A stretch of 64,000 nt of DNA from the human T2T-CHM13v2.0 reference genome, Homo sapiens: NCBI RefSeq assembly GCF_009914755.1, contig NC_060925.1, one strand, 5' to 3'. The notes below the pieces were generated by a model, which had not been told where the DNA came from, did no database searches, and was given only the letters and a program-made list of their open reading frames with translations. Of the stretch, positions 17,637 through 39,947 are shown piece after piece (the stretch's first letter is position 1; each line of letters starts with the position of its first letter). Position numbers and translations under genes: made by a program.

Positions 17637-18746
17637 ATGTGGCAAGAATACTATTTTTTAAATGTTTTCTTCCCACTTTTAAAAGTTTGCTGCCTAACAA
17701 TTAATTCACATGTTGTTATTTTACTGCCCTGGGAATGCTATCATCTTATTTGGAAGATATTACCTTATATCGGCACAACTGTAGGATCAATGGAAGAGTA
17801 CAACACATCCTCTACAGACTTCACTTTCATGGGGCTGTTCAACAGAAAGGAAACCTCAGGTCTTATTTTTGCCATCATCTCTATCATCTTCTTCACCGCA
17901 CTGATGGCCAATGGGGTTATGATCTTCCTGATCCAAACAGATTTGCGCCTTCATACACCCATGTACTTCCTCCTCAGCCACCTTTCCTTAATTGACATGA
18001 TGTATATTTCCACTATTGTGCCTAAGATGCTGGTTAATTACCTGCTGGATCAAAGGACCATTTCCTTTGTGGGGTGCACAGCTCAACACTTCCTCTACCT
18101 TACCCTTGTGGGAGCTGAATTCTTCCTGCTGGGCCTCATGGCCTATGACCGCTATGTGGCCATTTGCAACCCTCTGAGATACCCTGTCCTCATGAGCCGC
18201 CGGGTCTGTTGGATGATTATAGCAGGTTCCTGGTTTGGGGGCTCTTTGGATGGCTTCCTCCTAACCCCCATCACCATGAGCTTTCCCTTCTGCAATTCCC
18301 GGGAGATTAACCACTTCTTCTGTGAGGCACCAGCAGTCCTGAAGTTGGCATGTGCAGACACAGCCCTCTACGAGACAGTGATGTATGTGTGCTGTGTTTT
18401 GATGCTGCTGATTCCTTTCTCTGTAGTCCTTGCTTCCTATGCCCGAATCCTGACTACAGTTCAGTGCATGAGCTCAGTGGAGGGCAGGAAGAAGGCATTT
18501 GCCACTTGCTCATCCCACATGACTGTGGTGTCCTTGTTCTACGGGGCTGCCATGTACACCTACATGCTGCCACATTCTTACCACAAGCCAGCCCAGGACA
18601 AAGTCCTCTCTGTGTTTTACACCATTCTCACACCCATGCTGAACCCCCTCATCTACAGCCTTAGAAACAAGGATGTGACTGGAGCTCTGAAGAGGGCCTT
18701 GGGGAGGTTCAAGGGTCCTCAAAGGGTGTCAGGAGGTGTCTTTTGA
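17637..18746 (+). CDS. OR2T1: Olfactory receptor family 2 subfamily T member 1 (class II OR, 7TM GPCR). 369-aa ORF; the 318-aa form from ATG 17790 is the more typical OR start
   Basis: Intact ORF with all OR motifs: [55 protein letters not shown], and N-terminal sequon NTS. The [12 protein letters not shown]... N-terminus and ...RVSGGVF C-terminus match my recollection of human OR2T1. Confidence 0.93.
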
Positions 18747-18905
18747 CAGTCGACTCCTTCCCATGCATATGGTAAATGGGAGACTCTGTGGTCACTGTGG
18801 CTGTGCTTTCATCAAAAGATGAAGCAAAAAGGGAGGGAGTCATATGATTACAATATTGGTTTTTTGGCTAGGGTTTCTGGTTCATAACTCCATAGTTATG
18901 ATGTT

Positions 18906-19679
18906 GTGGTTTTTTAGGCCTCAGAAAACTGAATCTCTCTCTGTGATCTTCGCCTTCCCTCTTTTCACCTGCTTCTTTTTCTCCCCAAAGAAAGCCTTAG
19001 AAACTAAAAATATAATCCAATCTTTCCCCGCTTTTGGTCACAAAGAAATTATCTGACTACCTTGTCTGACTGTATGTCATAAGACCTCTGTTTCAAAAGA
19101 GGTCTTCTCTCATACCCTGGGGGAGGGAATGCTATACAGAGAGGCCAAGAAAAATCCGATCAGACAGGCCTTCGTGGGTGTCCCCACTCACTCTATCAAC
19201 ATTAGGTCATACTCTTTGTTCAATCATATTTCTGTGCAATTGTCCATGCTTCAATCATGACTATTCAATAAAGTCTCCATATAAGGGCCAAAAGGAGAGG
19301 ACAGAAAACTTCTGGACAGCTAAACTCATGAAGCTGAACAGGAGGGTGATAAGAACCCATCCATGTGCCTGGAGGGTGGCATGTCCCAACTCCACAGAGG
19401 CAGAAGCTCTTATGCTCTTCCAGACCTCACCCTCTGTGTCTTTTCATCTGACTGTTTCTGTGTATCCTTTGTAATATCATTTATAATAAGTGGTAAACAT
19501 AGGTAAGTGTTTCCTTTATAGTAAACTAACTGAACCCAAGGAAGGGCCGTGGGATCCCCAATTTACAATCACTTGGTCAAAAGTACAGGACAACTTGGGG
19601 CTTTTAATTGGCACTGGAAATGGAAGGCAGTGTTATGGGACTGAGCCCTCACCCTGTGGGATCTGACACTATCTCCAGA
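18906..19679 (+). mobile_element. MER21-family LTR (MER21A-like), 5' part, interrupted by the array
   Basis: MER21-like motifs CCTGGAGGGTGGCATGTCCCAACTCCACAGAGGCAGAAGCTC and GGGACTGAGCCCTCACCCTGTGGGATCTGACACTATCTCCAG. AATAAA at 19267-19272. The 5' boundary is approximate. Confidence 0.7.
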
Positions 19680-22600
19680 TAGATAGTGGCAGATGGTCAT
19701 GGGAGTTTAGCTTGGGCTAGAGCATTTGACTGTAGATAGCGGCAGATGGTCACGGGAGTTTAGCTCGGGCTAGAGCATTTGACTGTAGATAGCGGCAGAT
19801 GGTCACGGGAGTTTAGCTCGGGCTAGAGCATTTGACTGTAGATAGCGGCAGATGGTCACGGGAGTTTAGCTCGGGCTAGAGCATTTGACTGTAGATAGCG
19901 GCAGATGGTCACGGGAGTTTAGCTCGGGCTAGCGCATTTGACTGTAGATAGCGGCAGATGGTCACGGGAGTTTAGCTCGGGCTAGCGCATTTGACTGTAG
20001 ATAGCGGCAGATGGTCACGGGAGTTTAGCTCGGGCTAGCGCATTTGACTGTAGATAGCGGCAGATGGTCACGGGAGTTTAGCTCGGGCTAGAGCATTTGA
20101 CTGTAGATAGCGGCAGATGGTCACGGGAGTTTAGCTCGGGCTAGAGCATTTGACTGTAGATAGCGGCAGATGGTCACGGGAGTTTAGCTCGGGCTAGAGC
20201 ATTTGACTGTAGATAGCGGCAGATGGTCACGGGAGTTTAGCTCGGGCTAGAGCATTTCACTGCAGATAGCGGCAGATGGTCACGGGAGTTTAGCTCGGGC
20301 TAGCGCATTTGACTGTAGATAGCGGCAGATGGTCACGGGAGTTTAGCTCGGGCTAGAGCATTTGACTGTAGATAGCGGCAGATGGTCACGGGAGTTTAGC
20401 TCGGGCTAGAGCATTTGACTGTAGATAGCGGCAGATGGTCACGGGAGTTTAGCTCGGGCTAGAGCATTTGACTGTAGATAGCGGCAGATGGTCACGGGAG
20501 TTTAGCTCGGGCTAGAGCATTTGACTGTAGATAGCGGCAGATGGTCACGGGAGTTTAGCTCGGGCTAGCGCATTTGACTGTAGATAGCGGCAGATGGTCA
20601 CGGGAGTTTAGCTCGGGCTAGAGCATTTGACTGTAGATAGCGGCAGATGGTCCCGGGAGTTTAGCTCGGGCTAGGGCATTTGACTGCAGATAGCGGCAGA
20701 TGGTCACGGGAGTTTAGCTCGGGCTAGCGCATTTGACTGTAGATAGCGGCAGATGGTCACGGGAGTTTAGCTCGGGCTAGAGCATTTGACTGTAGATAGC
20801 GGCAGATGGTCACGGGAGTTTAGCTCGGGCTAGAGCATTTGACTGTAGATAGCGGCAGATGGTCACGGGAGTTTAGCTCGGGCTAGAGCATTTGACTGTA
20901 GATAGCGGCAGATGGTCACGGGAGTTTAGCTCGGGCTAGAGCATTTGACTGTAGATAGCGGCAGATGGTCACGGGAGTTTAGCTCGGGCTAGAGCATTTG
21001 ACTGTAGATAGCGGCAGATGGTCACGGGAGTTTAGCTCGGGCTAGAGCATTTGACTGTAGATAGCGGCAGATGGTCACGGGAGTTTAGCTCGGGCTAGAG
21101 CATTTGACTGCAGATAGCGGCAGATGGTCACGGGAGTTTAGCTCGGGCTAGAGCATTTGACTGTAGATAGCGGCAGATGGTCACGGGAGTTTAGCTCGGG
21201 CTAGAGCATTTGACTGTAGATAGCGGCAGATGGTCACGGGAGTTTAGCTCGGGCTAGAGCATTTGACTGTAGATAGCGGCAGATGGTCACGGGAGTTTAG
21301 CTCGGGCTAGCGCATTTGACTGTAGATAGCGGCAGATGGTCACGGGAGTTTAGCTCGGGCTAGATCATTTGACTGTAGATAGCGGCAGATGGTCACGGGA
21401 GTTTAGCTCGGGCTAGAGCATTTGAATGTAGATAGCGGCAGATGGTCACGGGAGTTTAGCTCGGGCTAGAGCATTTGACTGTAGATAGCGGCAGATGGTC
21501 ACGGGAGTTTAGCTCGGGCTAGCGCATTTGACTGTAGATAGCGGCAGATGGTCACGGGAGTTTAGCTCGGGCTAGCGCATTTGACTGTAGATAGCGGCAG
21601 ATGGTCACGGGAGTTTAGCTCGGGCTAGCGCATTTGACTGTAGATAGCGGCAGATGGTCACGGGAGTTTAGCTCGGGCTAGAGCATTTGACTGTAGATAG
21701 CGGCAGATGGTCACGGGAGTTTAGCTCGGGCTAGCGCATTTGACTGTAGATAGCGGCAGATGGTCACGGGAGTTTAGCTCGGGCTAGCGCATTTGACTGT
21801 AGATAGCGGCAGATGGTCACGGGAGTTTAGCTCGGGCTAGCGCATTTGACTGTAGATAGCGGCAGATGGTCACGGGAGTTTAGCTCGGGCTAGAGCATTT
21901 GACTGTAGATAGCGGCAGATGGTCACGGGAGTTTAGCTCGGGCTAGAGCATTTGACTGTAGATAGCGGCAGATGGTCACGGGAGTTTAGCTCGGGCTAGC
22001 GCATTTGACTGTAGATAGCGGCAGATGGTCACGGGAGTTTAGCTCGGGCTAGAGCATTTGACTGTAGATAGCGGCAGATGGTCCCGGGAGTTTAGCTCGG
22101 GCTAGAGCATTTGACTGTAGATAGCGGCAGATGGTCACGGGAGTTTAGCTCGGGCTAGAGCATTTGACTGTAGATAGCGGCAGATGGTCACGGGAGTTTA
22201 GCTCGGGCTAGAGCATTTGACTGTAGATAGCGGCAGATGGTCACGGGAGTTTAGCTCGGGCTAGCGCATTTGACTGTAGATAGCGGCAGATGGTCACGGG
22301 AGTTTAGCTCGGGCTAGCGCATTTGACTGTAGATAGCGGCAGATGGTCACGGGAGTTTAGCTCGGGCTAGAGCATTTGACTGCAGATAGCGGCAGATGGT
22401 CCCGGGAGTTTAGCTCGGGCTAGAGCATTTGACTGTAGATAGCGGCAGATGGTCACGGGAGTTTAGCTCGGGCTAGCGCATTTGACTGTAGATAGCGGCA
22501 GATGGTCACGGGAGTTTAGCTCGGGCTAGAGCATTTGACTGTAGATAGCGGCAGATGGTCACGGGAGTTTAGCTCGGGCTAGAGCATTTGACTGTAGATA

Positions 22601-25600
22601 GCGGCAGATGGTCACGGGAGTTTAGCTCGGGCTAGCGCATTTGACTGTAGATAGCGGCAGATGGTCACGGGAGTTTAGCTCGGGCTAGAGCATTTGACTG
22701 TAGATAGCGGCAGATGGTCCCGGGAGTTTAGCTCGGGCTAGAGCATTTGACTGTAGATAGCGGCAGATGGTCCCGGGAGTTTAGCTCGGGCTAGAGCATT
22801 TGACTGCAGATAGCGGCAGATGGTCACGGGAGTTTAGCTCGGGCTAGAGCATTTGACTGTAGATAGCGGCAGATGGTCACGGGAGTTTAGCTCGGGCTAG
22901 AGCATTTGACTGTAGATAGCGGCAGATGGTCCCGGGAGTTTAGCTCGGGCTAGAGCATTTGACTGTAGATAGCGGCAGATGGTCACGGGAGTTTAGCTCG
23001 GGCTAGCGCATTTGACTGTAGATAGCGGCAGATGGTCACGGGAGTTTAGCTCGGGCTAGAGCATTTGACTGTAGATAGCGGCAGATGGTCACGGGAGTTT
23101 AGCTCGGGCTAGAGCATTTGACTGCAGATAGCGGCAGATGGTCACGGGAGTTTAGCTCGGGCTAGCGCATTTGACTGTAGATAGCGGCAGATGGTCACGG
23201 GAGTTTAGCTCGGGCTAGAGCATTTGACTGTAGATAGCGGCAGATGGTCACGGGAGTTTAGCTCGGGCTAGCGCATTTGACTGTAGATAGCGGCAGATGG
23301 TCACGGGAGTTTAGCTCGGGCTAGAGCATTTGACTGTAGATAGCGGCAGATGGTCACGGGAGTTTAGCTCGGGCTAGAGCACTTGACTGTAGATAGCGGC
23401 AGATGGTCACGGGAGTTTAGCTCGGGCTAGCGCATTTGACTGTAGATAGCGGCAGATGGTCACGGGAGTTTAGCTCGGGCTAGAGCATTTGACTGTAGAT
23501 AGCGGCAGATGGTCCCGGGAGTTTAGCTCGGGCTAGAGCATTTGACTGTAGATAGCGGCAGATGGTCCCGGGAGTTTAGCTCGGGCTAGAGCATTTGACT
23601 GTAGATAGCGGCAGATGGTCACGGGAGTTTAGCTCGGGCTAGAGCATTTGACTGTAGATAGCGGCAGATGGTCACGGGAGTTTAGCTCGGGCTAGAGCAT
23701 TTGACTGTAGATAGCGGCAGATGGTCACGGGAGTTTAGCTCGGGCTAGAGCATTTGACTGTAGATAGCGGCAGATGGTCACGGGAGTTTAGCTCGGGCTA
23801 GAGCATTTGACTGTAGATAGCGGCAGATGGTCACGGGAGATTAGCTCGGGCTAGAGCATTTGACTGTAGATAGCGGCAGATGGTCACGGGAGTTTAGCTC
23901 GGGCTAGCGCATTTGACTGTAGATAGCGGCAGATGGTCACGGGAGTTTAGCTCGGGCTAGAGCATTTGACTGCAGATAGCGGCAGATGGTCACGGGAGTT
24001 TAGCTCGGGCTAGAGCATTTGACTGTAGATAGCGGCAGATGGTCACGGGAGTTTAGCTCGGGCTAGAGCATTTGACTGTAGATAGCGGCAGATGGTCACG
24101 GGAGTTTAGCTCGGGCTAGAGCATTTGACTGTAGATAGCGGCAGATGGTCACGGGAGTTTAGCTCGGGCTAGCGCATTTGACTGTAGATAGCGGCAGATG
24201 GTCACGGGAGTTTAGCTCGGGCTAGAGCATTTGACTGTAGATAGCGGCAGATGGTCACGGGAGTTTAGCTCGGGCTAGAGCATTTGACTGTAGATAGCGG
24301 CAGATGGTCACGGGAGTTTAGCTCGGGCTAGAGCATTTGACTGTAGATAGCGGCAGATGGTCACGGGAGTTTAGCTCGGGCTAGAGCATTTGACTGTAGA
24401 TAGCGGCAGATGGTCACGGGAGTTTAGCTCGGGCTAGCGCATTTGACTGTAGATAGCGGCAGATGGTCACGGGAGTTTAGCTCGGGCTAGCGCATTTGAC
24501 TGTAGATAGCGGCAGATGGTCACGGGAGTTTAGCTCGGGCTAGAGCATTTGACTGTAGATAGCGGCAGATGGTCACGGGAGTTTAGCTCGGGCTAGCGCA
24601 TTTGACTGTAGATAGCGGCAGATGGTCACGGGAGTTTAGCTCGGGCTAGCGCATTTGACTGTAGATAGCGGCAGATGGTCACGGGAGTTTAGCTCGGGCT
24701 AGCGCATTTGACTGTAGATAGCGGCAGATGGTCACGGGAGTTTAGCTCGGGCTAGAGCATTTGACTGTAGATAGCGGCAGATGGTCACGGGAGTTTAGCT
24801 CGGGCTAGCGCATTTGACTGTAGATAGCGGCAGATGGTCACGGGAGTTTAGGTCGGGCTAGCGCATTTGACTGTAGATAGCGGCAGATGGTCACGGGAGT
24901 TTAGCTCGGGCTAGAGCATTTGACTGTAGATAGCGGCAGATGGTCACGGGAGTTTAGCTCGGGCTAGCGCATTTGACTGTAGATAGCGGCATATGGTCAC
25001 GGGAGTTTAGCTCGGGCTAGCGCATTTGACTGTAGATAGCGGCAGATGGTCACGGGAGTTTAGCTCGGGCTAGAGCATTTGACTGTAGATAGCGGCAGAT
25101 GGTCACGGGAGTTTAGCTCGGGCTAGCGCATTTGACTGTAGATAGCGGCAGATGGTCACGGGAGTTTAGCTCGGGCTAGCGCATTTGACTGTAGATAGCG
25201 GCAGATGGTCACGGGAGTTTAGCTCGGGCTAGCGCATTTGACTGTAGATAGCGGCAGATGGTCACGGGAGTTTAGCTCGGGCTAGAGCATTTGACTGTAG
25301 ATAGCGGCAGATGGTCACGGGAGTTTAGCTCGGGCTAGCGCATTTGACTGTAGATAGCGGCAGATGGTCACGGGAGTTTAGCTCGGGCTAGCGCATTTGA
25401 CTGTAGATAGCGGCAGATGGTCACGGGAGTTTAGCTCGGGCTAGAGCATTTGACTGTAGATAGCGGCAGATGGTCACGGGAGTTTAGCTCGCGCTAGCGC
25501 ATTTGACTGTAGATAGCGGCAGATGGTCACGGGAGTTTAGCTCGGGCTAGCGCATTTGACTGTAGATAGCGGCAGATGGTCACGGGAGTTTAGCTCGGGC

Positions 25601-28600: not shown

Positions 28601-31600
28601 TCACGGGAGTTTAGCTCGGGCTAGAGCATTTGACTGTAGATAGCGGCAGATGGTCACGGGAGTTTAGCTCGGGCTAGCGCATTTGACTGTAGATAGCGGC
28701 AGATGGTCACGGGAGTTTAGCTCGGGCTAGAGCATTTGACTGTAGATAGCGGCAGATGGTCACGGGAGTTTAGCTCGGGCTAGAGCATTTGACTGTAGAT
28801 AGCGGCAGATGGTCACGGGAGTTTAGCTCGGGCTAGAGCATTTGACTGTAGATAGCGGCAGATGGTCACGGGAGTTTAGCTCGGGCTAGAGCATTTGACT
28901 GTAGATAGCGGCAGATGGTCACGGGAGTTTAGCTCGGGCTAGAGCATTTGACTGTAGATAGCGGCAGATGGTCACGGGAGTTTAGCTCGGGCTAGAGCAT
29001 TTGACTGTAGATAGCGGCAGATGGTCACGGGAGTTTAGCTCGGGCTAGAGCATTTGACTGTAGATAGCGGCAGATGGTCACGGGAGTTTAGCTCGGGCTA
29101 GAGCATTTGACTGTAGATAGCGGCAGATGGTCACGGGAGTTTAGCTCGGGCTAGAGCATTTGACTGTAGATAGCGGCAGATGGTCACGGGAGTTTAGCTC
29201 GGGCTAGAGCATTTGACTGTAGATAGCGGCAGATGGTCACGGGAGTTTAGCTCGGGCTAGCGCATTTGACTGTAGATAGCGGCAGATGGTCACGGGAGTT
29301 TAGCTCGGGCTAGCGCATTTGACTGGAGATAGCGGCAGATGGTCACGGGAGTTTAGCTCGGGCTAGCGCATTTGACTGCAGATAGCGGCAGATGGTCACG
29401 GGAGTTTAGCTCGGGCTAGCGCATTTGACTGTAGATAGCGGCAGATGGTCACGGGAGTTTAGCTCGGGCTAGCGCATTTGACTGTAGATAGCGGCAGATG
29501 GTCACGGGAGTTTAGCTCGGGCTAGAGCATTTGACTGTAGATAGCGGCAGATGGTCACGGGAGTTTAGCTCGGGCTAGCGCATTTGACTGTAGATAGCGG
29601 CAGATGGTCACGGGAGTTTAGCTCGGGCTAGCGCATTTCACTGTAGATAGCGGCAGATGGTCACGGGAGTTTAGCTCGGGCTAGAGCATTTGACTGTAGA
29701 TAGCGGCAGATGGTCACGGGAGTTTAGCTCGGGCTAGCGCATTTGACTGTAGATAGCGGCAGATGGTCACGGGAGTTTAGCTCGGGCTAGAGCATTTGAC
29801 TGTAGATAGCGGCAGATGGTCACGGGAGTTTAGCTCGGGCTAGAGCATTTGACTGTAGATAGCGGCAGATGGTCACGGGAGTTTAGCTCGGGCTAGAGCA
29901 TTTGACTGTAGATAGCGGCAGATGGTCACGGGAGTTTAGCTCGGGCTAGAGCATTTGACTGTAGATAGCGGCAGATGGTCACGGGAGTTTAGCTCGGGCT
30001 AGCGCATTTGACTGTAGATAGCGGCAGATGGTCACGGGAGTTTAGCTCGGGCTAGCGCATTTGACTGTAGATAGCGGCAGATGGTCACGGGAGTTTAGCT
30101 CGGGCTAGCGCATTTGACTGTAGATAGCGGCAGATGGTCACGGGAGTTTAGCTCGGGCTAGCGCATTTCACTGTAGATAGCGGCAGATGGTCACGGGAGT
30201 TTAGCTCGGGCTAGCGCATTTGACTGTAGATAGCGGCAGATGGTCACGGGAGTTTAGCTCGGGCTAGCGCATTTGACTGTAGATAGCGGCAGATGGTCAC
30301 GGGAGTTTAGCTCGGGCTAGCGCATTTGACTGTAGATAGCGGCAGATGGTCACGGGAGTTTAGCTCGGGCTAGAGCATTTGACTGTAGATAGCGGCAGAT
30401 GGTCACGGGAGTTTAGCTCGGGCTAGAGCATTTGACTGTAGATAGCGGCAGATGGTCACGGGAGTTTAGCTCGGGCTAGCGCATTTGACTGTAGATAGCG
30501 GCAGATGGTCACGGGAGTTTAGCTCGGGCTAGAGCATTTGACTGTAGATAGCGGCAGATGGTCCCGGGAGTTTAGCTCGGGATAGAGCATTTGACTGTAG
30601 ATAGCGACAGATGGTCACGGGAGTTTAGCTCGGGCTAGAGCATTTGACTGTAGATAGCGGCAGATGGTCACGGGAGTTTAGCTCGGGCTAGAGCATTTGA
30701 CTGTAGATAGCGGCAGATGGTCACGGGAGTTTAGCTCGGGCTAGAGCATTTGACTGTAGATAGCGGCAGATGGTCACGGGAGTTTAGCTCGGGCTAGAGC
30801 ATTTGACTGTAGATAGCGGCAGATGGTCACGGGAGTTTAGCTCGGGCTAGAGCATTTGACTGTAGATAGCGGCAGATGGTCACGGGAGTTTAGCTCGGGC
30901 TAGAGCATTTGACTGTAGATAGCGGCAGATGGTCACGGGAGTTTAGCTCGGGCTAGAGCATTTGACTGTAGATAGCGGCAGATGGTCACGGGAGTTTAGC
31001 TCGGGCTAGCGCATTTGACTGTAGATAGCGGCAGATGGTCACGGGAGTTTAGCACGGGCTAGAGCATTTGACTGTAGATAGCGGCAGATGGTCACGGGAG
31101 TTTAGCTCGGGCTAGAGCATTTGACTGCAGATAGCGGCAGATGGTCACGGGAGTTTAGCTCGGGCTAGCGCATTTGACTGTAGATAGCGGCAGATGTTCA
31201 CGGGAGTTTAGCTCGGGCTAGAGCATTTGACTGTAGATAGCGGCAGATGGTCACGGGAGTTTAGCTCGGGCTAGCGCATTTGACTGTAGATAGCGGCAGA
31301 TGGTCACGGGAGTTTAGCTCGGGCTAGAGCATTTGACTGTAGATAGCGGCAGATGGTCACGGGAGTTTAGCTCGGGCTAGAGCATTTGACTGTAGATACC
31401 GGCAGATGGTCACGGGAGTTTAGCTCGGGCTAGCGCATTTGACTGTAGATAGCGGCAGATGGTCACGGGAGTTTAGCTCGCCCTAGAGCATTTGACTGTA
31501 GATAGCGGCAGATGGTCCCGGGAGTTTAGCTCGGGCTAGAGCATTTGACTGTAGATAGCGGCAGATGGTCACGGGAGTTTAGCTCGGGCTAGAGCATTTG

Positions 31601-34600
31601 ACTGCAGATAGCGGCAGATGGTCACGGGAGTTTAGCTCGGGCTAGAGCATTTGACTGTAGATAGCGGCAGATGGTCACGGGAGTTTAGCTCGGGCTAGAG
31701 CATTTGACTGTAGATAGCGGCAGATGGTCACGGGAGTTTAGCTCGGGCTAGAGCATTTGACTGTAGATAGCGGCAGATGGTCACGGGAGTTTAGCTCGGG
31801 CTAGCGCATTTGACTGTAGATAGCGGCAGATGGTCACGGGAGTTTAGCTCGGGCTAGCGCATTTGACTGTAGATAGCGGCAGATGGTCACGGGAGTTTAG
31901 CTCGGGCTAGAGCATTTGACTGCAGATAGCGGCAGATGGTCACGGGAGTTTAGCTCGGGCTAGCGCATTTGACTGTAGATAGCGGCAGATGGTCACGGGA
32001 GTTTAGCTCGGGCTAGAGCATTTGACTGTAGATAGCGGCAGATGGTCACGGGAGTTTAGCTCGGGCTAGCGCATTTGACTGTAGATAGCGGCAGATGGTC
32101 ACGGGAGTTTAGCTCGGGCTAGAGCATTTGACTGTAGATAGCGGCAGATGGTCACGGGAGTTTAGCTCGGGCTAGCGCATTTGACTGTATATAGCGGCAG
32201 ATGGTCACGGGAGTTTAGCTCGGGCTAGCGCATTTGACTGTAGATAGCGGCAGATGGTCCCGGGAGTTTAGCTCGGGCTAGAGCATTTGACTGTAGATAG
32301 CGGCAGATGGTCCCGGGAGTTTAGCTCGGGCTAGAGCATTTGACTGTAGATAGCGGCAGATGGTCACGGGAGTTTAGCTCGGGCTAGAGCATTTGACTGT
32401 AGATAGCGGCAGATGGTCACGGGAGTTTAGCTCGGGCTAGAGCATTTGACTGTAGATAGCGGCAGATGGTCACGGGAGTTTAGCTCGGGCTAGAGCATTT
32501 GACTGTAGATAGCGGCAGATGGTCACGGGAGTTTAGCTCGGGCTAGAGCATTTGACTGTAGATAGCGGCAGATGGTCACGGGAGTTTAGCTCGGGCTAGA
32601 GCATTTGACTGTAGATAGCGGCAGATGGTCACGGGAGTTTAGCTCGGGCTAGAGCATTTGACTGTAGATAGCGGCAGATGGTCACGGGAGTTTAGCTCGG
32701 GCTAGAGCATTTGACTGTAGATAGCGGCAGATGGTCACGGGAGTTTAGCTCGGGCTAGCGCATTTGACTGTAGATAGCGGCAGATGGTCACGGGAGTTTA
32801 GCTCGGGCTAGAGCATTTGACTGCAGATAGCGGCAGATGGTCACGGGAGTTTAGCTCGGGCTAGCGCATTTGACTGTAGATAGCGGCAGATGGTCACGGG
32901 AGTTTAGCTCGGGCTAGAGCATTTGACTGTAGATAGCGGCAGTTGGTCACGGGAGTTTAGCTCGGGCTAGAGCATTTGACTGTAGATAGCGGCAGATGGT
33001 CACGGGAGTTTAGCTCGGGCTAGCGCATTTGACTGTAGATAGCGGCAGATGGTCACGGGAGTTTAGCTCGGGCTAGAGCATTTGACTGTAGATAGCGGCA
33101 GATGGTCACGGGAGTTTAGCTCGGGCTAGAGCATTTGACTGTAGATAGCGGCAGATGGTCACGGGAGTTTAGCTCGGGCTAGCGCATTTGACTGTAGATA
33201 GCGGCAGATGGTCACGGGAGTTTAGGTCGGGCTAGAGCATTTGACTGTAGATAGCGGCAGATGGTCACGGGAGTTTAGCTCGGGCTAGCGCATTTGACTG
33301 TAGATAGCGGCAGATGGTCACGGGAGTTTAGCTCGGGCTAGCGCATTTGACTGTAGATAGCGGCAGATGGTCACGGGAGTTTAGCTCGGGCTAGAGCATT
33401 TGACTGTAGATAGCGGCAGATGGTCACGGGAGTTTAGCTCGGGCTAGCGCATTTGACTGTAGATAGCGGCAGATGGTCACGGGAGTTTACCTCGGGCTAG
33501 CGCATTTGACTGTAGATAGCGACAGATGGTCACGGGAGTTTAGCTCGGGCTAGCGCATTTGACTTTAGATAGCGGCAGATGGTCACGGGAGTTTAGCTCG
33601 GGCTAGAGCATTTGACTGTAGATAGCGGCAGATGGTCACGGGAGTTTAGCTCGGGCTAGCGCATTTGACTGGAGATAGCGGCAGATGGTCACGGGAGTTT
33701 AGCTCGGGCTAGAGCATTTGACTGCAGATAGCGGCAGATGGTCACGGGAGTTTAGCTCGGGCTAGCGCATTTGACTGTAGATAGCGGCAGATGGTCACGG
33801 GAGTTTAGCTCGTGCTAGCGCATTTGACTGTAGATAGCGGCAGATGGTCACGGGAGTTTAGCTCGGGCTAGAGCATTTGACTGTAGATAGCGGCAGATGG
33901 TCACGGGAGTTTAGCTCGGGCTAGAGCATTTGACTGTAGATAGCGGCAGATGGTCACGGGAGTTTAGCTCGGGCTAGAGCATTTGACTGTAGATAGCGGC
34001 AGATGGTCACGGGAGTTTAGCTCGGGCTAGAGCATTTGACTGTAGATAGCGGCAGATGGTCACGGGAGTTTAGCTCGGGCTAGCGCATTTGACTGTAGAT
34101 AGCGGCAGATGGTCACGGGAGTTTAGCTCGGGCTAGAGCATTTGACTGTAGATAGCGGCAGATGGTCACGGGAGTTTAGCTCGGGCTAGCGCATTTGACT
34201 GTAGATAGCGGCAGATGGTCACGGGAGTTTAGCTCGGGCTAGAGCATTTGACTGTAGATAGCGGCAGATGGTCACGGGAGTTTAGCTCGGGCTAGAGCAT
34301 TTGACTGTAGATAGCGGCAGATGGTCACGGGAGTTTAGCTCGGGCTAGCGCATTTGACTGTAGATAGCGGCAGATGGTCACGGGAGTTTAGCTCGGGCTA
34401 GCGCATTTGACTGTAGATAGCGGCAGATGGTCACGGGAGTTTAGCTCGGGCTAGCGCATTTGACTGTAGATAGCGGCAGATGGTCACGGGAGTTTAGCTC
34501 GGGCTAGAGCATTTGACTGTAGATAGCGGCAGATGGTCACGGGAGTTTAGCTCGGGCTAGCGCATTTGACTGTAGATAGCGGCAGATGGTCACGGGAGTT

Positions 34601-37600
34601 TAGCTCGGGCTAGCGCATTTGACTGTAGATAGCGGCAGATGGTCACGGGAGTTTAGCTCGGGCTAGCGCATTTGACTGTAGATAGCGGCAGATGGTCACG
34701 GGAGTTTAGCTCGGGCTAGAGCATTTGACTGTAGATAGCGGCAGATGGTCACGGGAGTTTAGCTCGGGCTAGAGCATTTGACTGTAGATAGCGGCAGATG
34801 GTCACGGGAGTTTAGCTCGGGCTAGCGCATTTGACTGTAGATAGCGGCAGATGGTCACGGGAGTTTAGCTCGGGCTAGAGCATTTGACTGTAGATAGCGG
34901 CAGATGGTCCCGGGAGTTTAGCTCGGGATAGAGCATTTGACTGTAGATAGCGACAGATGGTCACGGGAGTTTAGCTCGGGCTAGAGCATTTGACTGTAGA
35001 TAGCGGCAGATGGTCACGGGAGTTTAGCTCGGGGTAGAGCATTTGACTGTAGATAGCGGCAGATGGTCACGGGAGTTTAGCTCGGGCTAGAGCATTTGAC
35101 TGTAGATAGCGGCAGATGGTCACGGGAGTTTAGCTCGGGCTAGAGCATTTGACTGTAGATAGCGGCAGATGGTCACGGGAGTTTAGCTCGGGCTAGAGCA
35201 TTTGACTGTAGATAGCGGCAGATGGTCACGGGAGTTTAGCTCGGGCTAGAGCATTTGATTGTAGATAGCGGCAGATGGTCACGGGAGTTTAGCTCGGGCT
35301 AGCGCATTTGACTGTAGATAGCGGCAGATGGTCACGGGAGTTTAGCTCGGGCTAGAGCATTTGACTGTAGATAGCGGCAGATGGTCACGGGAGTTTAGCT
35401 CGGGCTAGAGCATTTGACTGCAGATAGCGGCAGATGGTCACGGGAGTTTAGCTCGGGCTAGCGCATTTGACTGTAGATAGCGGCAGATGTTCACGGGAGT
35501 TTAGCTCGGGCTAGAGCATTTGACTGTAGATAGCGGCAGATGGTCACGGGAGTTTAGCTCGGGCTAGCGCATTTGACTGTAGATAGCGGCAGATGGTCAC
35601 GGGAGTTTAGCTCGGGCTAGAGCATTTGACTGTAGATAGCGGCAGATGGTCACGGGAGTTTAGCTCGGGCTAGAGCATTTGACTGTAGATAGCGGCAGAT
35701 GGTCACGGGAGTTTAGCTCGGGCTAGCGCATTTGACTGTAGATAGCGGCAGATGGTCACGGGAGTTTAGCTCGCCCTAGAGCATTTGACTGTAGATAGCG
35801 GCAGATCGTCCCGGGAGTTTAGCTCGGGCTAGAGCATTTGACTGTAGATAGCGGCAGATGGTCCCGGGAGTTTAGCTCGGGCTAGAGCATTTGACTGCAG
35901 ATAGCGGCAGATGGTCACGGGAGTTTAGCTCGGGCTAGAGCATTTGACTGTAGATAGCGGCAGATGGTCACGGGAGTTTAGCTCGGGCTAGAGCATTTGA
36001 CTGTAGATAGCGGCAGATGGTCACGGGAGTTTAGCTCGGGCTAGAGCATTTGACTGTAGATAGCGGCAGATGGTCACGGGAGTTTAGCTCGGGCTAGCGC
36101 ATTTGACTGTAGATAGCGGCAGATGGTCACGGGAGTTTAGCTCGGGCTAGAGCATTTGACTGTAGATAGCGGCAGATGGTCACGGGAGTTTAGCTCGGGC
36201 TAGAGCATTTGACTGCAGATAGCGGCAGATGGTCACGGGAGTTTAGCTCGGGCTAGCGCATTTGACTGTAGATAGCGGCAGATGGTCACGGGAGTTTAGC
36301 TCGGGCTAGAGCATTTGACTGTAGATAGCGGCAGATGGTCACGGGAGTTTAGCTCGGGCTAGCGCATTTGACTGTAGATAGCGGCAGATGGTCACGGGAG
36401 TTTAGCTCGGGCTAGCGCATTTGACTGTAGATAGCGGCAGATGGTCACGGGAGTTTAGCTCGGGCTAGAGCATTTGACTGTAGATAGCGGCAGATGGTCC
36501 CGGGAGTTTAGCTCGGGCTAGAGCATTTGACTGTAGATAGCGGCAGATGGTCACGGGAGTTTAGCTCGGGCTAGAGCATTTGACTGTAGATAGCGGCAGA
36601 TGGTCACGGGAGTTTAGCTCGGGCTAGCGCATTTGACTGTAGATAGCGGCAGATGGTCACGGGAGTTTAGCTCGGGCTAGAGCATTTGACTGTAGATAGC
36701 GGCAGATGGTCCCGGGAGTTTAGCTCGGGCTAGAGCATTTGACTGTAGATAGCGGCAGATGGTCACGGGAGTTTAGCTCGGGCTAGAGCATTTGACTGTA
36801 GATAGCGGCAGATGGTCACGGGAGTTTAGCTCGGGCTAGAGCATTTGACTGTAGATAGCGGCAGATGGTCACGGGAGTTTAGCTCGGGCTAGAGCATTTG
36901 ACTGTAGATAGCGGCAGATGGTCACGGGAGTTTAGCTCGGGCTAGAGCATTTGACTGTAGATAGCGGCAGATGGTCACGGGAGTTTAGCTCGGGCTAGAG
37001 CATTTGACTGTAGATAGCGGCAGATGGTCACGGGAGTTTAGCTCGGGCTAGCGCATTTGACTGTAGATAGCGGCAGATGGTCACGGGAGTTTAGCTCGGG
37101 CTAGAGCATTTGACTGCAGATAGCGGCAGATGGTCACGGGAGTTTAGCTCGGGCTAGCGCATTTGACTGTAGATAGCGGCAGATGGTCACGGGAGTTTAG
37201 CTCGGGCTAGAGCATTTGACTGTAGATAGCGGCAGATGGTCACGGGAGTTTAGCTCGGGCTAGAGCATTTGACTGTAGATAGCGGCAGATGGTCACGGGA
37301 GTTTAGCTCGGGCTAGCGCATTTGACTGTAGATAGCGGCAGATGGTCACGGGAGTTTAGCTCGGGCTAGAGCATTTGACTGTAGATAGCGGCAGATGGTC
37401 ACGGGAGTTTAGCTCGGGCTAGAGCATTTGACTGTAGATAGCGGCAGATGGTCACGGGAGTTTAGCTCGGGCTAGCGCATTTGACTGTAGATAGCGGCAG
37501 ATGGTCACGGGAGTTTAGCTCGGGCTAGAGCATTTGACTGTAGATAGCGGCAGATGGTCACGGGAGTTTAGCTCGGGCTAGCGCATTTGACTGTAGATAG

Positions 37601-39777
37601 CGGCAGATGGTCACGGGAGTTTAGCTCGGGCTAGCGCATTTGACTGTAGATAGCGGCAGATGGTCACGGGAGTTTAGCTCGGGCTAGCGCATTTGACTGT
37701 AGATAGCGGCAGATGGTCACGGGAGTTTAGCTCGGGCTAGCGCATTTGACTGTAGATAGCGGCAGATGGTCACGGGAGTTTACCTCGGGCTAGCGCATTT
37801 GACTGTAGATAGCGACAGATGGTCACGGGAGTTTAGCTCGGGCTAGCGCATTTGACTTTAGATAGCGGCAGATGGTCACGGGAGTTTAGCTCGGGCTAGA
37901 GCATTTGACTGTAGATAGCGGCAGATGGTCACGGGAGTTTAGCTCGGGCTAGAGCATTTGACTGTAGATAGCGGCATATGGTCACGGGAGTTTAGCTCGG
38001 GCTAGCGCATTTGACTGTAGATAGCGGCAGATGGTCACGGGAGTTTAGCTCGGGCTAGAGCATTTGACTGTAGATAGCGGCAGATGGTCCCGGGAGTTTA
38101 GCTCGGGCTAGATCATTTGACTGTAGATAGCGGCAGATGGTCACGGGAGTTTAGCTCGGGCTAGAGCATTTGACTGTAGATAGCGGCAGATGGTCCCGGG
38201 AGTTTAGCTCGGGCTAGAGCATTTGACTGTAGATAGCGGCAGATGGTCACGGGAGTTTAGCTCGGGCTAGAGCATTTGACTGTAGATAGCGGCAGATGGT
38301 CACGGGAGTTTAGCTCGGGCTAGAGCATTTGACTGTAGATAGCGGCAGATGGTCACGGGAGTTTAGCTCGGGCTAGCGCATTTGACTGTAGATAGCGGCA
38401 GATGGTCACGGGAGTTTAGCTCGGGCTAGAGCATTTGACTGTAGATAGCGGCAGATGGTCACGGGAGTTTAGCTCGGGCTAGAGCATTTGACTGTAGATA
38501 GCGGCAGATGGTCACGGGAGTTTAGCTCGGGCTAGAGCATTTGACTGTAGATAGCGGCAGATGGTCACGGGAGTTTAGCTCGGGGTAGAGCATTTGACTG
38601 TAGATAGCGGCAGATGGTCACGGGAGTTTAGCTCGGGCTAGCGCATTTGACTGTAGATAGCGGCAGATGGTCACGGGAGTTTAGCTCGGGCTAGCGCATT
38701 TGACTGTAGATAGCGGCAGATGGTCACGGGAGTTTAGCTCGGGCTAGAGCATTTGACTGTAGATAGCGGCAGATGGTCACGGGAGTTTAGCTCGGGCTAG
38801 CGCATTTGACTGTAGATAGCGGCAGATGGTCACGGGAGTTTAGCTCGGGCTAGCGCATTTGACTGTAGATAGCGGCAGATGGTCACGGGAGTTTAGCTCG
38901 GGCTAGCGCATTTGACTGTAGATAGCGGCAGATGGTCACGGGAGTTTAGCTCGGGCTAGAGCATTTGACTGTAGATAGCGGCAGATGGTCCCGGGAGTTT
39001 AGCTCGGGCTAGAGCATTTGACTGTAGATAGCGGCAGATGGTCACGGGAGTTTAGCTCGGGCTAGAGCATTTGACTGTAGATAGCGGCAGATGGTCACGG
39101 GAGTTTAGCTCGGGCTAGAGCATTTGACTGTAGATAGCGGCAGATGGTCACGGGAGTTTAGCTCGGGCTAGAGCATTTGACTGTAGATAGCGGCAGATGG
39201 TCACGGGAGTTTAGCTCGGGCTAGCGCATTTGACTGTAGATAGCGGCAGATGGTCACGGGAGTTTAGCTCGGGCTAGCGCATTTGACTGTAGATAGCGGC
39301 AGATGGTCACGGGAGTTTAGCTCGGGCTAGAGCATTTGACTGTAGATAGCGGCAGATGGTCACGGGAGTTTAGCTCGGGCTAGCGCATTTGACTGTAGAT
39401 AGCGGCAGATGGTCACGGGAGTTTAGCTCGGGCTAGCGCATTTGACTGTAGATAGCGGCAGATGGTCACGGGAGTTTAGCTCGGGCTAGCGCATTTGACT
39501 GTAGATAGCGGCAGATGGTCACGGGAGTTTAGCTCGGGCTAGCGCATTTGACTGTAGATAGCGGCAGATGGTCACGGGAGTTTAGCTCGGGCTAGAGCAT
39601 TTGACTGTAGATAGTGGCAGATGGTCACGGGAGTTTAGCTCGGGCTAGAGCATTTGACTGTAGATAGTGGCAGATGGTCACGGGAGTTTAGCTCGGGCTA
39701 GCGCATTTGACTGTAGATAGTGGCAGATGGTCATGGGAGTTTAGCTTGGGCTAGCGCATTTGACTGTAGATAGTGGC
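19680..39777. repeat. Giant 53-bp tandem array (VNTR/satellite), 379 full units, about 20.1 kb, CpG-rich
   Basis: Unit GTAGATAGCGGCAGATGGTCACGGGAGTTTAGCTCGGGCTAG[A/C]GCATTTGACT. AGATAG at 19681 and 39768 are 20087 bp apart (379 x 53), so there is no net indel. The ORF track lists no ORF within the array body. Confidence 0.99.
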
Positions 39778-39947
39778 CGAATGGAATTGATTTGGAGGAC
39801 ACCAAGTGGTGTCCACTGCAGAAATGATTGTTTACTTGGTGTGTATCAAAAATCCCCCACTCACTTGGTCCCATACATCTTATATGTTGGTTGTTGTGTG
39901 GTGTGGAAGCAGAGGAAAACTGTTTCATGTGTTTTTTTCCTCAAAGA
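39778..39947 (+). mobile_element. MER21-family LTR, 3' part resuming after the array
   Basis: GAATGGAATTGATTTGGAGGACACC..TGGTGTCC..AAAATCCCCCAC..CTTGGTC..GAGGAAAAC..TTTTTTCC is the expected continuation of the LTR interrupted at 19680. Confidence 0.7.

What the first reader, a model, noticed from the sequence alone, without database searches (positions are those of the whole stretch)
19680..39777. 20-kb, 379 x 53-bp array forming a giant CpG island about 930 bp downstream of OR2T1
Seen: exact 53-bp periodicity with no net indel. The consensus unit has 28/53 G+C (53%) and 3 CpG (4 in the GCGC variant), giving CpG obs/exp of about 0.9-1.1 and over 1,100 CpGs, in AT-rich, CpG-poor flanks. Established: OR clusters are AT-rich, CpG-island-poor and heterochromatic, and large CpG-rich arrays such as D4Z4 and DXZ4 act as length- and methylation-dependent chromatin elements. 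Inference: this may be a length-polymorphic epigenetic element (boundary or silencing nucleator) for the OR2T cluster. I cannot tell whether it has already been catalogued as a VNTR.
Basis: partly seen in the sequence, partly recalled or inferred. Interest (0 to 1): 0.8.

Follow-up and report, generated by a model that had tools for sequence, protein, structure and literature searches.

The report
tRNA-seeded giant minisatellite beside OR2T1
A 20-kb run of 379 near-identical 53-base units next to an odorant-receptor gene is a real, CpG-rich minisatellite that grew from a tiny retro-copied piece of a cysteine tRNA plus its insertion scar, and nothing in its sequence yet shows that it controls the neighbouring genes.

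Summary
Window 19680-39777 is 379 in-register 53-bp units plus an 11-nt end piece, with no indels. It has 1277 CpGs, GC 0.537 and CpG o/e 0.99, in flanks with o/e 0.13-0.23.

New here is the origin of the unit. Positions 22-53, plus 5 nt of the next unit, match nucleotides 1-38 of tRNA-Cys(GCA) at 33 of 38 columns (0 of 2000 shuffles reach the score). Positions 1-14 are a target-site duplication of an old dispersed repeat. The founder fits a "tailless" tRNA retropseudogene. The array is (duplication + insert) x 379, closed by the second duplication copy. It occurs nowhere else in this genome and lies 533,551 bp from the chromosome end.

Interior variants are odd: 23 transversion types to 6 transition types, none at a CpG. 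CpG>TpG decay occurs only in units 1 and 377-379. The commonest variants are all AT>GC.

No CTCF, tRNA B-box, G-quadruplex, Lhx2/Ebf or PRDM9 motif, no ORF and no RNA family was found. The chromatin-element idea stays untested. Length polymorphism is hinted at only by optical maps (PMC6615982). No paper naming the array was found.

The parts
18895..19679 (+). 5' part of an old dispersed interspersed repeat (family not named); it lies inside the OR2T1 3' UTR
   Evidence: Whole-genome searches with the left flank gave 40-42 scored matches on many chromosomes at 68-81% identity, out of 999-1647 first-look candidates. Many matches start at window ~18895-18916.
19680..19693 (+). 5' copy of the 14-nt target-site duplication (first 14 nt of unit 1)
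   Evidence: It is 13/14 identical to 39767-39780. Other copies of the dispersed repeat carry this stretch once, with the left and right flanks contiguous.
19680..39766 (+). 379 full 53-bp units. Each unit has 14 nt of duplication-derived sequence, 7 nt of unknown origin (TGGTCAY) and 32 nt of tRNA-Cys 5' half.
19754..19790 (+). Example of the tRNA-Cys(GCA)-derived segment: unit 2 positions 22-53 plus the first 5 nt of unit 3. It corresponds to tRNA nucleotides 1-38 (acceptor 5' strand, D arm, anticodon stem and loop).
   Evidence: 33 of 38 alignment columns are identical to the majority sequence of 27 tRNA-Cys genes. Local score 49; 2000 unit shuffles gave mean 12.6 and maximum 29.
19680..19732 (+). 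Edge unit 1, with all three CpGs read as TpG
39608..39766 (+). Edge units 377-379, with CpG>TpG at position 8 in all three and at positions 21 and 34 in unit 379
31075..33618 (+). Units 216-263, the first copy of an old internal multi-unit duplication
   Evidence: 35 of 48 units are identical to units 297-344 at a lag of 81 units. The next best lag gives 46% and the mean over lags is 29%.
35368..37911 (+). Units 297-344, the second copy of the internal duplication
39767..39780 (+). 3' copy of the target-site duplication. Its first 11 nt are the 'partial unit' that ends the array.
39781..39937 (+). 3' part of the same dispersed repeat, followed by A runs at 39964-39973 and 39981-39987
   Evidence: The right-flank search gave 40 matches at 72-84% identity. 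The furthest alignment reaches ~39937.
17757..19646 (+). OR2T1 last exon (annotation supplied with the finding), ending 34 bp before the array
   Evidence: Hub annotation. The only canonical AATAAA between the stop codon and the array is at 19267.

Best explanation
This is a single-locus, GC-rich subtelomeric minisatellite (VNTR), and its birth can be read from the sequence.

Step 1 (shown). A 3'-truncated copy of tRNA-Cys(GCA), covering nucleotides 1 to about 38 and ending in the anticodon loop, sits in an old dispersed repeat just 3' of OR2T1. It has 7 extra 5' nucleotides, no A tail and a 14-nt target-site duplication. This is the architecture of a 'tailless retropseudogene'.

Step 2 (inferred, following the Haber-Louis model). 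The two duplication copies served as the short flanking direct repeats for a first slippage or unequal-exchange duplication. That made the 53-bp unit: one duplication copy plus the insert.

Step 3 (partly shown). The array then grew to 379 units by multi-unit unequal exchange and conversion. This keeps the interior homogeneous and leaves old, decayed units at both ends.

Step 4 (inferred). Its CpG-island character comes partly from the G-rich tRNA half and partly from repair biased towards G/C. With the tRNA as outgroup, the A42C change is derived; it has reached 146 of 379 units and created 146 extra CpGs.

I think a dedicated regulatory function is unlikely. The array is most likely a fast-evolving, length-variable by-product of recombination near the 1q telomere. 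Because it starts 34 bp past the OR2T1 transcript end, passive local effects on that gene are possible.
For: Anatomy:
- 379 in-register units with no indels.
- The array ends with an 11-nt partial unit that is the start of the second duplication copy.
- In 12 other copies of the dispersed repeat the two flanks are contiguous and share this stretch once.
- The two duplication copies are 13/14 identical.

tRNA origin:
- A 20-mer spanning 17 unit junctions occurs exactly 48 times in the genome: 17 in the array and 31 elsewhere.
- 27 of those 31 lie in ARAGORN tRNA-Cys(gca) genes.
- 3 of the other 4 are truncated tRNA-Cys pieces flanked by 15-18-nt direct repeats (0 of 500 shuffles reach the score).
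- Unit against majority tRNA: 33/38 columns, and 0 of 2000 shuffles reach the score.
- The defining features of tailless retropseudogenes were read in Noll et al. 2015, PMC5322556.
- The Haber-Louis model was read as a passage in PMC6947457.

Single locus: two 32-mers of the unit, at <=2 and <=3 mismatches, each give 379 forward hits, 0 reverse hits and 0 control hits in 3.1 Gb.

Subtelomeric: 533,551 bp from the contig end.

Growth by blocks: units 216-263 against 297-344 are 35/48 identical.

Edge decay and interior gain:
- All 8 CpG>TpG changes are in units 1 and 377-379.
- C34 equals tRNA C13, so T34 at the edges is derived.
- A42 equals the tRNA base, so C42 is derived.
- The three commonest variants (A42C 146 units, A20C 27, T1C 23) are all AT>GC. 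The chance of this is 0.0055, though I noticed the pattern before testing it.

Nothing suggests a coded product or a known binding site.
Against: - The tRNA-like part differs from present tRNA-Cys genes at 4 bases and 1 gap in 38. ARAGORN and Rfam do not call it.
- The 7 nt between the duplication and tRNA nucleotide 1 have no identified source. No examined gene has that leader (by eye).
- The target site matches the published consensus TT/WAAAAWW at only about 4 of 9 places, by eye.
- The first duplication and the GC-biased conversion are inferred, not observed. Without an ape outgroup the polarity at unit positions 1, 8, 20 and 21 is open.
- The absence of CpG variants in the interior (0 of 29 types; P=0.03 even under uniform rates) could mean the island is kept unmethylated or is under constraint. 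That would speak for more than a passive by-product.
- Copy-number polymorphism is not shown here.
Confidence: 0.75

Rival explanations
1. One reading: the array is a length- and methylation-dependent chromatin element (boundary, silencing nucleator or R-loop terminator) acting on OR2T1 and the OR2T cluster. It would work like the ATRX-bound G-rich psi-zeta VNTR at alpha-globin, or like D4Z4/DXZ4.
For: - It is the only CpG-island-like stretch in 64 kb apart from one 200-bp window.
- GC skew is +0.33, with the G-rich strand being the sense strand of OR2T1. The array starts 34 bp past the transcript end, with no canonical poly(A) signal within 370 bp upstream.
- Interior CpGs show no decay.
- A subtelomeric G-rich VNTR can disturb neighbouring genes through ATRX and R-loops (PMC13018553, abstract read).
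- VNTR copy number is widely associated with local methylation and expression (Garg et al. preprint, listing and passages).
Against: - No CTCF core match at <=2 mismatches, no canonical or long-loop G-quadruplex pattern, and no Sp1, EBF-like or homeobox site in the unit.
- No tRNA B box, so TFIIIC-type insulation is unlikely.
- G content is only 36%.
- No locus-specific report in 9 locus-directed paper searches.
- Non-decay of CpGs can also come from homogenisation with G/C-biased mismatch repair.
Confidence: 0.12
2. Assembly artefact: the true array is much shorter or differently arranged, and 379 units reflects over-expansion or false duplication in the assembly.
For: A 20-kb array about 98% self-identical (mean pairwise unit identity 98.1%) is hard to assemble. 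The internal 81-unit-lag similarity could in principle be a false duplication.
Against: - The two blocks are not identical: 13 of 48 units differ.
- 16 of the 29 interior variant types recur in ordered patterns.
- Register is kept through all 379 units and both edges are clean.
- Optical maps independently show size variation at OR2T1 (PMC6615982).
- Reads could not be examined here.
Confidence: 0.04
3. The array makes a functional RNA. This could be sense transcripts carrying 379 tRNA-Cys 5'-half-like modules, or antisense transcripts complementary to tRNA-Cys, acting as a tRNA-fragment mimic or sponge.
For: Each unit keeps a 15-nt perfect match to the tRNA-Cys D/anticodon arm, and 17 junctions keep a 20-nt match. 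The + strand is the sense strand downstream of OR2T1.
Against: - No Pol III promoter: best A-box match has 3 mismatches and best B-box match 3-4.
- No Rfam family above E=0.078, and no tRNA among the hits.
- The 5' oligo-G of the tRNA is interrupted.
- No expression data.
Confidence: 0.03
4. The tRNA resemblance is coincidental or secondary, and the 42-nt non-repeat part comes from some other, lost source.
For: That part has no significant similarity to the host repeat, to 18 other copies of it, or to the rest of the window. The best case was 9 of 200 shuffles, among 21 tests. The source is therefore not local.
Against: - 0 of 2000 shuffles reach the tRNA alignment score.
- The alignment starts exactly at tRNA nucleotide 1 and stops in the anticodon loop.
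- Three independent genomic tRNA-Cys fragments show the same truncated, duplication-flanked build.
Confidence: 0.03

Closest known systems
GC-rich hypervariable minisatellites of chromosome ends (classical examples such as MS32/D1S8 and CEB1; names recalled)
   Same: - Tens-of-bp unit in a head-to-tail array.
- GC-rich with a G-rich strand.
- Interspersed variant units.
- Position near a telomere.
- Older, degenerate units at the ends.
   Different: - Very large (379 units, 20.1 kb), and no unit differs in length.
- No Jeffreys-core match at <=2 mismatches or chi match at <=1.
- The origin of the unit is traceable.
- Polymorphism not shown here.
Tailless tRNA retropseudogenes (Schmitz et al. 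2004, cited in Noll et al. 2015, PMC5322556)
   Same: - 5'-complete tRNA copy, 3'-truncated in a loop.
- No A tail.
- 14-nt target-site duplication whose start resembles the RNA end.
- 7 nt of possible precursor leader.
   Different: - Here the insert plus one duplication copy has been amplified 379 times in tandem.
- The target site fits the published L1-type consensus poorly.
- No tandem form is mentioned in that paper: the term 'tandem' occurs 0 times in its main text.
Minisatellites born between short flanking direct repeats, many from Alu and other mobile elements (Haber and Louis 1998, as summarised in PMC6947457)
   Same: The unit equals the segment between two short direct repeats plus one of the repeats. 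The array ends with a repeat copy.
   Different: The flanking repeats are an insertion's own 14-nt target-site duplication, not chance 5-10-bp repeats inside an element.
Macrosatellites D4Z4 and DXZ4
   Same: Large CpG-rich tandem arrays. Array size and methylation matter for their chromatin state (established knowledge; reviews seen in the listing).
   Different: - Their units are about 3 kb, against 53 bp here.
- They carry CTCF sites and, for D4Z4, an ORF.
- Here there is no CTCF-like motif and no ORF of 40 aa or more.
ATRX-bound G-rich psi-zeta VNTR of the alpha-globin cluster (PMC13018553, abstract read)
   Same: Subtelomeric, G-skewed, CpG-containing VNTR beside a gene cluster. It works as a cis-acting hazard through R-loops when transcribed.
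   Different: No G-quadruplex-forming pattern here. ATRX binding, transcription and R-loops are untested.
tRNA gene VNTR at 1q23.3 proposed as a boundary element (PMC4041453; only the search-listing abstract seen)
   Same: A tRNA-related tandem array on chromosome 1 with copy-number variation.
   Different: That array has 7.3-kb units with whole tRNA genes and CTCF binding. Here the units are 53 bp, hold only a decayed 5' tRNA half and have no B box.

Membership tests
Minisatellite / VNTR (GC-rich, chromosome-end class) | Head-to-tail array of units of roughly 10-100 bp | tested here: met
   Period 53, 379.2 copies, 0% indels. Register is kept over all units.
Minisatellite / VNTR (GC-rich, chromosome-end class) | GC-rich with strand asymmetry | tested here: met
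   GC 0.537 against 0.37-0.39 in the flanks. GC skew is +0.32 to +0.34 across the array.
Minisatellite / VNTR (GC-rich, chromosome-end class) | Interspersed variant units within the array | tested here: met
   40 full-length unit types. Types A (180), B (114), C (19) and D (14) are interspersed.
Minisatellite / VNTR (GC-rich, chromosome-end class) | Location near a chromosome end | tested here: met
   The array end is 533,551 bp from the end of contig C1, which is 248,387,328 bp long.
Minisatellite / VNTR (GC-rich, chromosome-end class) | Copy number varies between individuals | not testable with these tools
   Only one haploid assembly is held. Indirect hint: optical maps show 3 major and further indel haplotypes overlapping OR2T1 (PMC6615982), and the array fills the Nt.BspQI label-free interval 19414-42272.
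Tailless tRNA retropseudogene (founder insertion) | 5'-(almost) complete copy of the RNA, with at most 20 nt between the 5' duplication and the element start | tested here: met
   The alignment starts at tRNA nucleotide 1. 7 nt lie between the duplication and that base. Criterion read in PMC5322556 section 6.
Tailless tRNA retropseudogene (founder insertion) | 3' truncation of at least 10 nt at a loop or single-stranded region, and no oligo(A) tail | tested here: met
   Homology ends at nucleotides 33-38 of 72, in the anticodon loop. The duplication follows directly, with no A run.
Tailless tRNA retropseudogene (founder insertion) | Flanking target-site duplication of 8-35 nt with at least 70% identity | tested here: met
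   14 nt, 13/14 identical. The stretch is present once in 12 other copies of the host repeat.
Tailless tRNA retropseudogene (founder insertion) | Length at least 30 nt and more than 69% identity to the source RNA | tested here: met
   33 of 38 columns (87%). 0 of 2000 shuffles reach the score.
Tailless tRNA retropseudogene (founder insertion) | Target site resembles the last 2-18 nt of the copied RNA, and fits the consensus TT/WAAAAWW | tested here: inconclusive
   The duplication starts TAGAT against tRNA CAGAT (4 of 5). The fit to TT/WAAAAWW is only about 4 of 9, judged by eye from the sequence. Consensus read.
Macrosatellite (D4Z4 / DXZ4 type) | Unit of a kilobase or more | tested here: not met
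   The unit is 53 bp.
Macrosatellite (D4Z4 / DXZ4 type) | CTCF site and/or ORF in each unit | tested here: not met
   No match to the recalled CTCF core consensus at <=2 mismatches. No ORF of 40 aa or more in the array. There are 3-5 stops per 53 codons in all six frames.
CpG island | Length over 200 bp, GC over 50%, CpG o/e over 0.6 | tested here: met
   20,098 bp, GC 0.537, o/e 0.99. 398 of the window's 399 passing 200-bp windows overlap the array.
CpG island | Stricter criterion of GC at least 55% (threshold recalled) | tested here: not met
   GC is 0.537 for the array, 0.528 for type A units and 0.547 for type B units.
CpG island | Unmethylated in the germline | not testable with these tools
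   Indirect only. 0 of 29 interior variant types fall on a CpG, and decay is confined to units 1 and 377-379. Biased repair during homogenisation could give the same picture.
tRNA gene / TFIIIC-type insulator | Internal A box and B box, and a foldable tRNA | tested here: not met
   Best A-box match has 3 mismatches and best B-box match 3-4, while the real tRNA has 1 each. ARAGORN finds 0 genes in the window. Rfam gives no tRNA match at E<=1.
Olfactory-receptor cluster enhancer ('Greek island'; motif recalled) | Composite Lhx2 homeobox plus Ebf site | tested here: not met
   No TAATTA or YTAATTR (<=1 mismatch) and no TCCCNNGGGA (<=1 mismatch) in the unit on either strand.
ATRX-target G-rich VNTR | G-quadruplex-forming repeat | tested here: not met
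   0 matches in the array to four G3+ runs with loops of up to 7 or up to 12 nt. G fraction is 0.36. ATRX binding itself is not testable here.
Multi-locus satellite family | The same unit at several loci | tested here: not met
   Each of two 32-mers gives 379 forward hits and 0 reverse hits in the whole genome, equal to the number of units. All 100 listed places lie in the array.

The most novel reading that the evidence does not exclude
The array is a 20-kb, non-promoter CpG island built from tRNA-half units. Its CpGs are actively kept, either unmethylated in the germline or restored by CpG-directed repair, and new ones are still being added (A42C). Its allele length sets the chromatin state, R-loop load or transcription termination at the 3' end of OR2T1, and so insulates or biases choice among neighbouring OR2T genes.
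Probability: 0.1. Interest if true: 0.7.

Novelty: new member of a known kind. Interest (0 to 1): 0.35.

Why it matters
It gives an unusually clean, base-by-base record of how a very large human minisatellite was born. A 38-nt retro-copied tRNA fragment and its own 14-nt insertion scar supplied both the unit and the flanking repeats needed for the first duplication.

It also offers a natural test bed of 1277 CpGs in one homogeneous array. That allows germline hypomethylation to be separated from G/C-biased repair as the cause of CpG persistence and gain.

It flags a strongly transversion-biased variant spectrum (23 transversion types to 6 transition types) that may be a signature of repair-associated mutagenesis in such arrays.

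For olfactory-receptor biology it matters only if allele length proves to influence OR2T1 or its neighbours, and that is untested.

Tried and rejected
Sequence tests that came back negative:
- Protein coding: no ORF of 40 aa or more in the array, and 3-5 stops per 53 codons in every frame.
- Known RNA: Rfam at E<=1 gave only two weak matches in the flanks (mir-3117 at E=0.078, snoR100 at E=0.39) and no tRNA. ARAGORN found 0 genes.
- Motifs with no match in the unit: PRDM9 13-mer (<=1 mismatch), CTCF core (<=2), Sp1, EBF-like (<=1), homeobox, poly(A) signals and G-quadruplex patterns; Jeffreys core (<=2) and chi (<=1). All motif strings were recalled from memory. The only hits were two E-boxes per unit (CAGATG, CATTTG), which I do not read as evidence of function.
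- Recent paralogue of the OR2T1 3' flank: none. The best non-self identity is 81% or less, and those hits are copies of the dispersed repeat.
- Local origin of the 42-nt non-repeat part: no significant similarity to the host repeat, to 18 other copies of it, or to the rest of the window.
- Single-strand folding: the G-rich strand of two units folds at -14.7 kcal/mol (z = -2.57; 3 of 200 shuffles do as well). The C-rich strand does not (z = +0.97). This is a modest slipped-strand potential and not decisive.

Steps that failed or were closed:
- A whole-genome DNA search with four units was not scored because there were too many candidates. Pattern searches replaced it.

Literature:
The nine other than the ATRX/G-rich-VNTR search looked for this array or for tRNA-derived tandem repeats, and none found a paper that names or describes the array. 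Three strings of the unit were found in 0 papers.
- The search word 'or2t1' also matches OR2T10, OR2T11 and OR2T12, which explained several false leads.
- Supplements of Course et al. 2021 (3 of 4 files searched) hold no OR2T entry.
- Sulovari 2019, Audano 2019 and Garg 2021 (journal version) are not held. Their supplementary VNTR tables, and those of bioRxiv preprints, could list this locus and I could not see them.

I did not name the host dispersed repeat, because no repeat library is available here.

Full report
OBSERVATION

Tandem Repeats Finder finds one array at 19680-39777: period 53, 379.2 copies, 98% matches, 0% indels, score 38453. Cutting the stretch every 53 bases never loses register. 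This gives 379 full units and an 11-nt end piece. Of the 379 units, 180 equal the consensus, 156 differ at one base, 38 at two, 4 at three and 1 at four. There are 40 full-length unit types.

The array has 1277 CpGs, GC 0.537 and CpG o/e 0.99. The two 10-kb flanks have GC 0.369 / o/e 0.23 and GC 0.394 / o/e 0.13, and the whole non-array window has o/e 0.17. GC skew is +0.32 to +0.34 throughout. Of the 399 sliding 200-bp windows in the 64 kb that pass GC>0.5 and o/e>0.6, 398 overlap the array.

Two refinements apply. The array begins 934 bp after the OR2T1 stop codon but only 34 bp after the annotated transcript end. Its GC is below the stricter 55% island threshold, which I recall rather than checked.

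SINGLE LOCUS NEAR THE TELOMERE

The window's assembly is held: 3.1 Gb in 24 contigs, with the window at C1:247,814,001-247,878,000. Two different 32-mers of the unit, at up to 2 and up to 3 mismatches, each give 379 forward hits and 0 reverse hits. The reversed-pattern control gives 0. The count equals the number of units, and all 100 listed places lie in the array.

The contig is 248,387,328 bp long, so the array ends 533,551 bp from its end.

WHAT THE ARRAY SITS IN

Both flanks belong to one old dispersed repeat.
- The left flank finds 42 scored matches, from 1647 first-look candidates, at 68-79% identity on many chromosomes.
- The stretch further left finds 40 matches at 69-81%, many starting at window ~18895-18916.
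- The right flank finds 40 matches at 72-84%.

In other copies, the parts matching the left and right flanks abut and overlap by about 14 nt. An alignment of 12 copies shows that they carry the stretch TAGATAGTG(T/G)C... once.

In the window this stretch opens unit 1 (19680-19693) and recurs right after the last full unit (39767-39780), 13 of 14 bases identical. The array therefore looks like an insertion flanked by a 14-nt duplication of its target. The '0.2 copy' at the end is the start of the second duplication copy.

The remaining 42 nt of the unit show no significant similarity to the host repeat, to 18 other copies of it, or to the rest of the window. The best case was 9 of 200 shuffles, among 21 comparisons.

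WHERE THE UNIT COMES FROM

Part of the unit reminded me of tRNA-Cys. I tested that with sequences taken from the genome, not from memory.
- A 20-mer that spans 17 unit junctions occurs exactly 48 times in the genome: 17 in the array and 31 elsewhere.
- ARAGORN calls a tRNA-Cys(gca) gene at 27 of those 31 places.
- The majority sequence of the 27 genes, nucleotides 1-38, aligns to unit positions 22-53 plus the first 5 nt of the next unit. 33 of 38 columns are identical (4 mismatches, 1 gap). At junctions where the next unit starts with C, 34 of 38 are identical.
- The local score is 49. In 2000 shuffles of the unit the mean is 12.6 and the maximum 29.
- The homology starts at tRNA nucleotide 1 and stops in the anticodon loop.

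Of the four non-gene places, three (L038, L055, L056) are truncated tRNA-Cys pieces. Each ends in the anticodon stem-loop and is flanked by 15-18-nt direct repeats (0 of 500 shuffles reach the score). The fourth has only a 9-nt repeat (50 of 500).

This build is that of 'tailless retropseudogenes', as defined in Noll et al. 2015 (PMC5322556; abstract, passages and sections 6 and 15 read):
- 5'-complete, and 3'-truncated by at least 10 nt at a loop;
- no oligo(A) tail;
- a duplication of 8-35 nt at 70% identity or more;
- up to 20 nt of precursor leader allowed for tRNAs;
- a target site resembling the end of the copied RNA.

The founder here meets all of these. The leader is 7 nt, and the duplication starts TAGAT against tRNA CAGAT. 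The exception is a poor fit to the published target consensus TT/WAAAAWW, about 4 of 9 by eye.

HOW IT BECAME AN ARRAY (INFERRED)

A segment bracketed by short direct repeats is the starting point of the Haber-Louis model of minisatellite birth. I read this model as a passage in PMC6947457. Slippage or unequal exchange between the two 14-mers would give two units of 'duplication + insert' closed by a duplication copy. This is exactly the observed frame.

Later growth was at least partly by blocks. Units 216-263 and 297-344 are identical at 35 of 48 positions at a lag of 81 units. The next best lag gives 46% and the mean is 29%. Rare unit types recur in the same order. Because 13 of the 48 units differ, this is an old real duplication and not a duplicated assembly block.

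VARIANT SPECTRUM

All 8 CpG>TpG changes lie in unit 1 and units 377-379. In units 2-375, which hold 1268 CpGs, there are 29 variant types: 23 transversions and 6 transitions. None falls on a CpG.

With the tRNA as outgroup, two polarities are fixed.
- C at unit position 34 is ancestral, so the T at both edges is decay.
- A at position 42 is ancestral, so the GCGC variant is a gain. It has reached 146 of 379 units.

The three commonest variants (A42C, A20C, T1C) are all AT>GC. The chance of that is 0.0055, given that 6 of the 29 types are AT>GC, though I noticed the pattern before testing it.

How unlikely is the absence of CpG variants?
- If CpGs mutated ten times faster than other bases (a recalled figure for methylated CpGs), zero CpG types among 29 has P about 4e-12.
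- At three times faster, P is 2.6e-5.
- Even under uniform rates, zero types on the six CpG positions has P = 0.03.

Six or fewer transitions among 29 has P = 5e-7 under a 2:1 transition bias (recalled genome average). Among the 16 variant types seen in more than one unit the count is still 14 transversions to 2 transitions, so singleton assembly errors do not explain it.

I read this as follows. The edge units are outside the homogenised core and decay like methylated DNA. The core is either unmethylated in the germline or is kept CpG-rich by G/C-biased repair during frequent exchange. The excess of transversions, including 8 G:C>C:G types, is unexplained. Repair-associated mutagenesis is a guess.

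FUNCTION

No coded product is apparent.
- No ORF of 40 aa or more lies in the array, and every frame has 3-5 stops per 53 codons.
- Rfam gives no family above E=0.078 and no tRNA. ARAGORN finds nothing in the window.

Known boundary or regulatory signatures are also absent from the unit.
- CTCF core at <=2 mismatches, PRDM9 13-mer at <=1, Sp1, EBF-like and homeobox sites, and G-quadruplex patterns all give no match.
- Jeffreys core and chi give no match.
- The best A-box match has 3 mismatches and the best B-box match 3-4.

Only two E-boxes per unit are present. The G-rich strand has a modest hairpin potential across unit borders (z = -2.57).

The closest working analogy for a cis effect is the ATRX-bound G-rich VNTR of the alpha-globin cluster (PMC13018553, abstract). 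This unit lacks that repeat's quadruplex potential.

The array does lie downstream of OR2T1 with its G-rich strand as the sense strand. The annotated transcript end has no canonical poly(A) signal nearby; the only AATAAA is at 19267. Read-through into the array is therefore conceivable, but I could not test it.

POLYMORPHISM AND LITERATURE

I could not compare haplotypes. Optical maps of many people show three major and further indel haplotypes 'overlapping OR2T1' (PMC6615982, passages). The array fills the label-free interval between Nt.BspQI sites at 19414 and 42272. That fits length variation but does not prove it.

The nine other than the ATRX/G-rich-VNTR search looked for this array or for tRNA-derived tandem repeats, and none found a paper that names or describes the array. 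Strings of the unit occur in 0 papers. Genome-wide VNTR tables in supplements that I could not open may well list it, since any TRF-based catalogue would detect it.

VERDICT

The array is real and single-locus, and it is an ordinary kind of object: a large GC-rich subtelomeric minisatellite. What is not ordinary is its legible origin, a tailless tRNA-Cys retropseudogene plus its target-site duplication, and its odd variant spectrum. The proposed epigenetic role is neither supported nor excluded.

My confidence is about 0.9 in the origin. It is about 0.75 in the whole account, including 'no dedicated function'.

Noticed in passing
window 19680-39766 (units 2-375): The interior variant types are 23 transversions to 6 transitions. 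Eight of them are G:C>C:G types, and 14 of the 16 multi-copy types are transversions. This is far from the usual transition excess and is unexplained.
   Followed up: partly
window 19267-19680: The annotated OR2T1 transcript end (19646) has no canonical poly(A) signal within about 370 bp upstream. The only AATAAA after the stop codon is at 19267. The next ones on the + strand come after the array, at 40068, 40266 and 40983. The annotated end may reflect the start of unmappable repeat rather than a true cleavage site.
   Followed up: partly
L038 (C5:132,700,521-132,700,840), L055 (C10:96,371,550-96,371,869), L056 (C11:20,320,722-20,321,041), L039 (C6:36,977,832-36,978,151): These are four single-copy truncated tRNA-Cys fragments outside tRNA genes. 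Three have clear 15-18-nt flanking direct repeats that begin inside the anticodon stem-loop. In L038 the repeat is an A-run.
   Followed up: partly
window 15226-15849: A complex tandem repeat of 59-61-bp units (about 10 copies, 89-94% matches) lies in the OR2T1 intron, interleaved with (TG)n runs.
   Followed up: no
window 57626-58121: A 42-bp tandem repeat with 11.7 copies and 87% matches.
   Followed up: no
window 62451-62650: This is the only 200-bp window outside the array that passes GC>0.5 and CpG o/e>0.6.
   Followed up: no
window 19733-19838, + strand: The G-rich strand of two adjacent units folds into a hairpin spanning the unit border (-14.7 kcal/mol, z = -2.57, 3 of 200 shuffles as good). 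The C-rich strand does not fold.
   Followed up: no
G000 C7:150.49-150.89 Mb and C17:39.70-40.02 Mb: The exact 20-mer marks clusters of tRNA-Cys(gca) genes: 16 places on C7 and 6 on C17.
   Followed up: no
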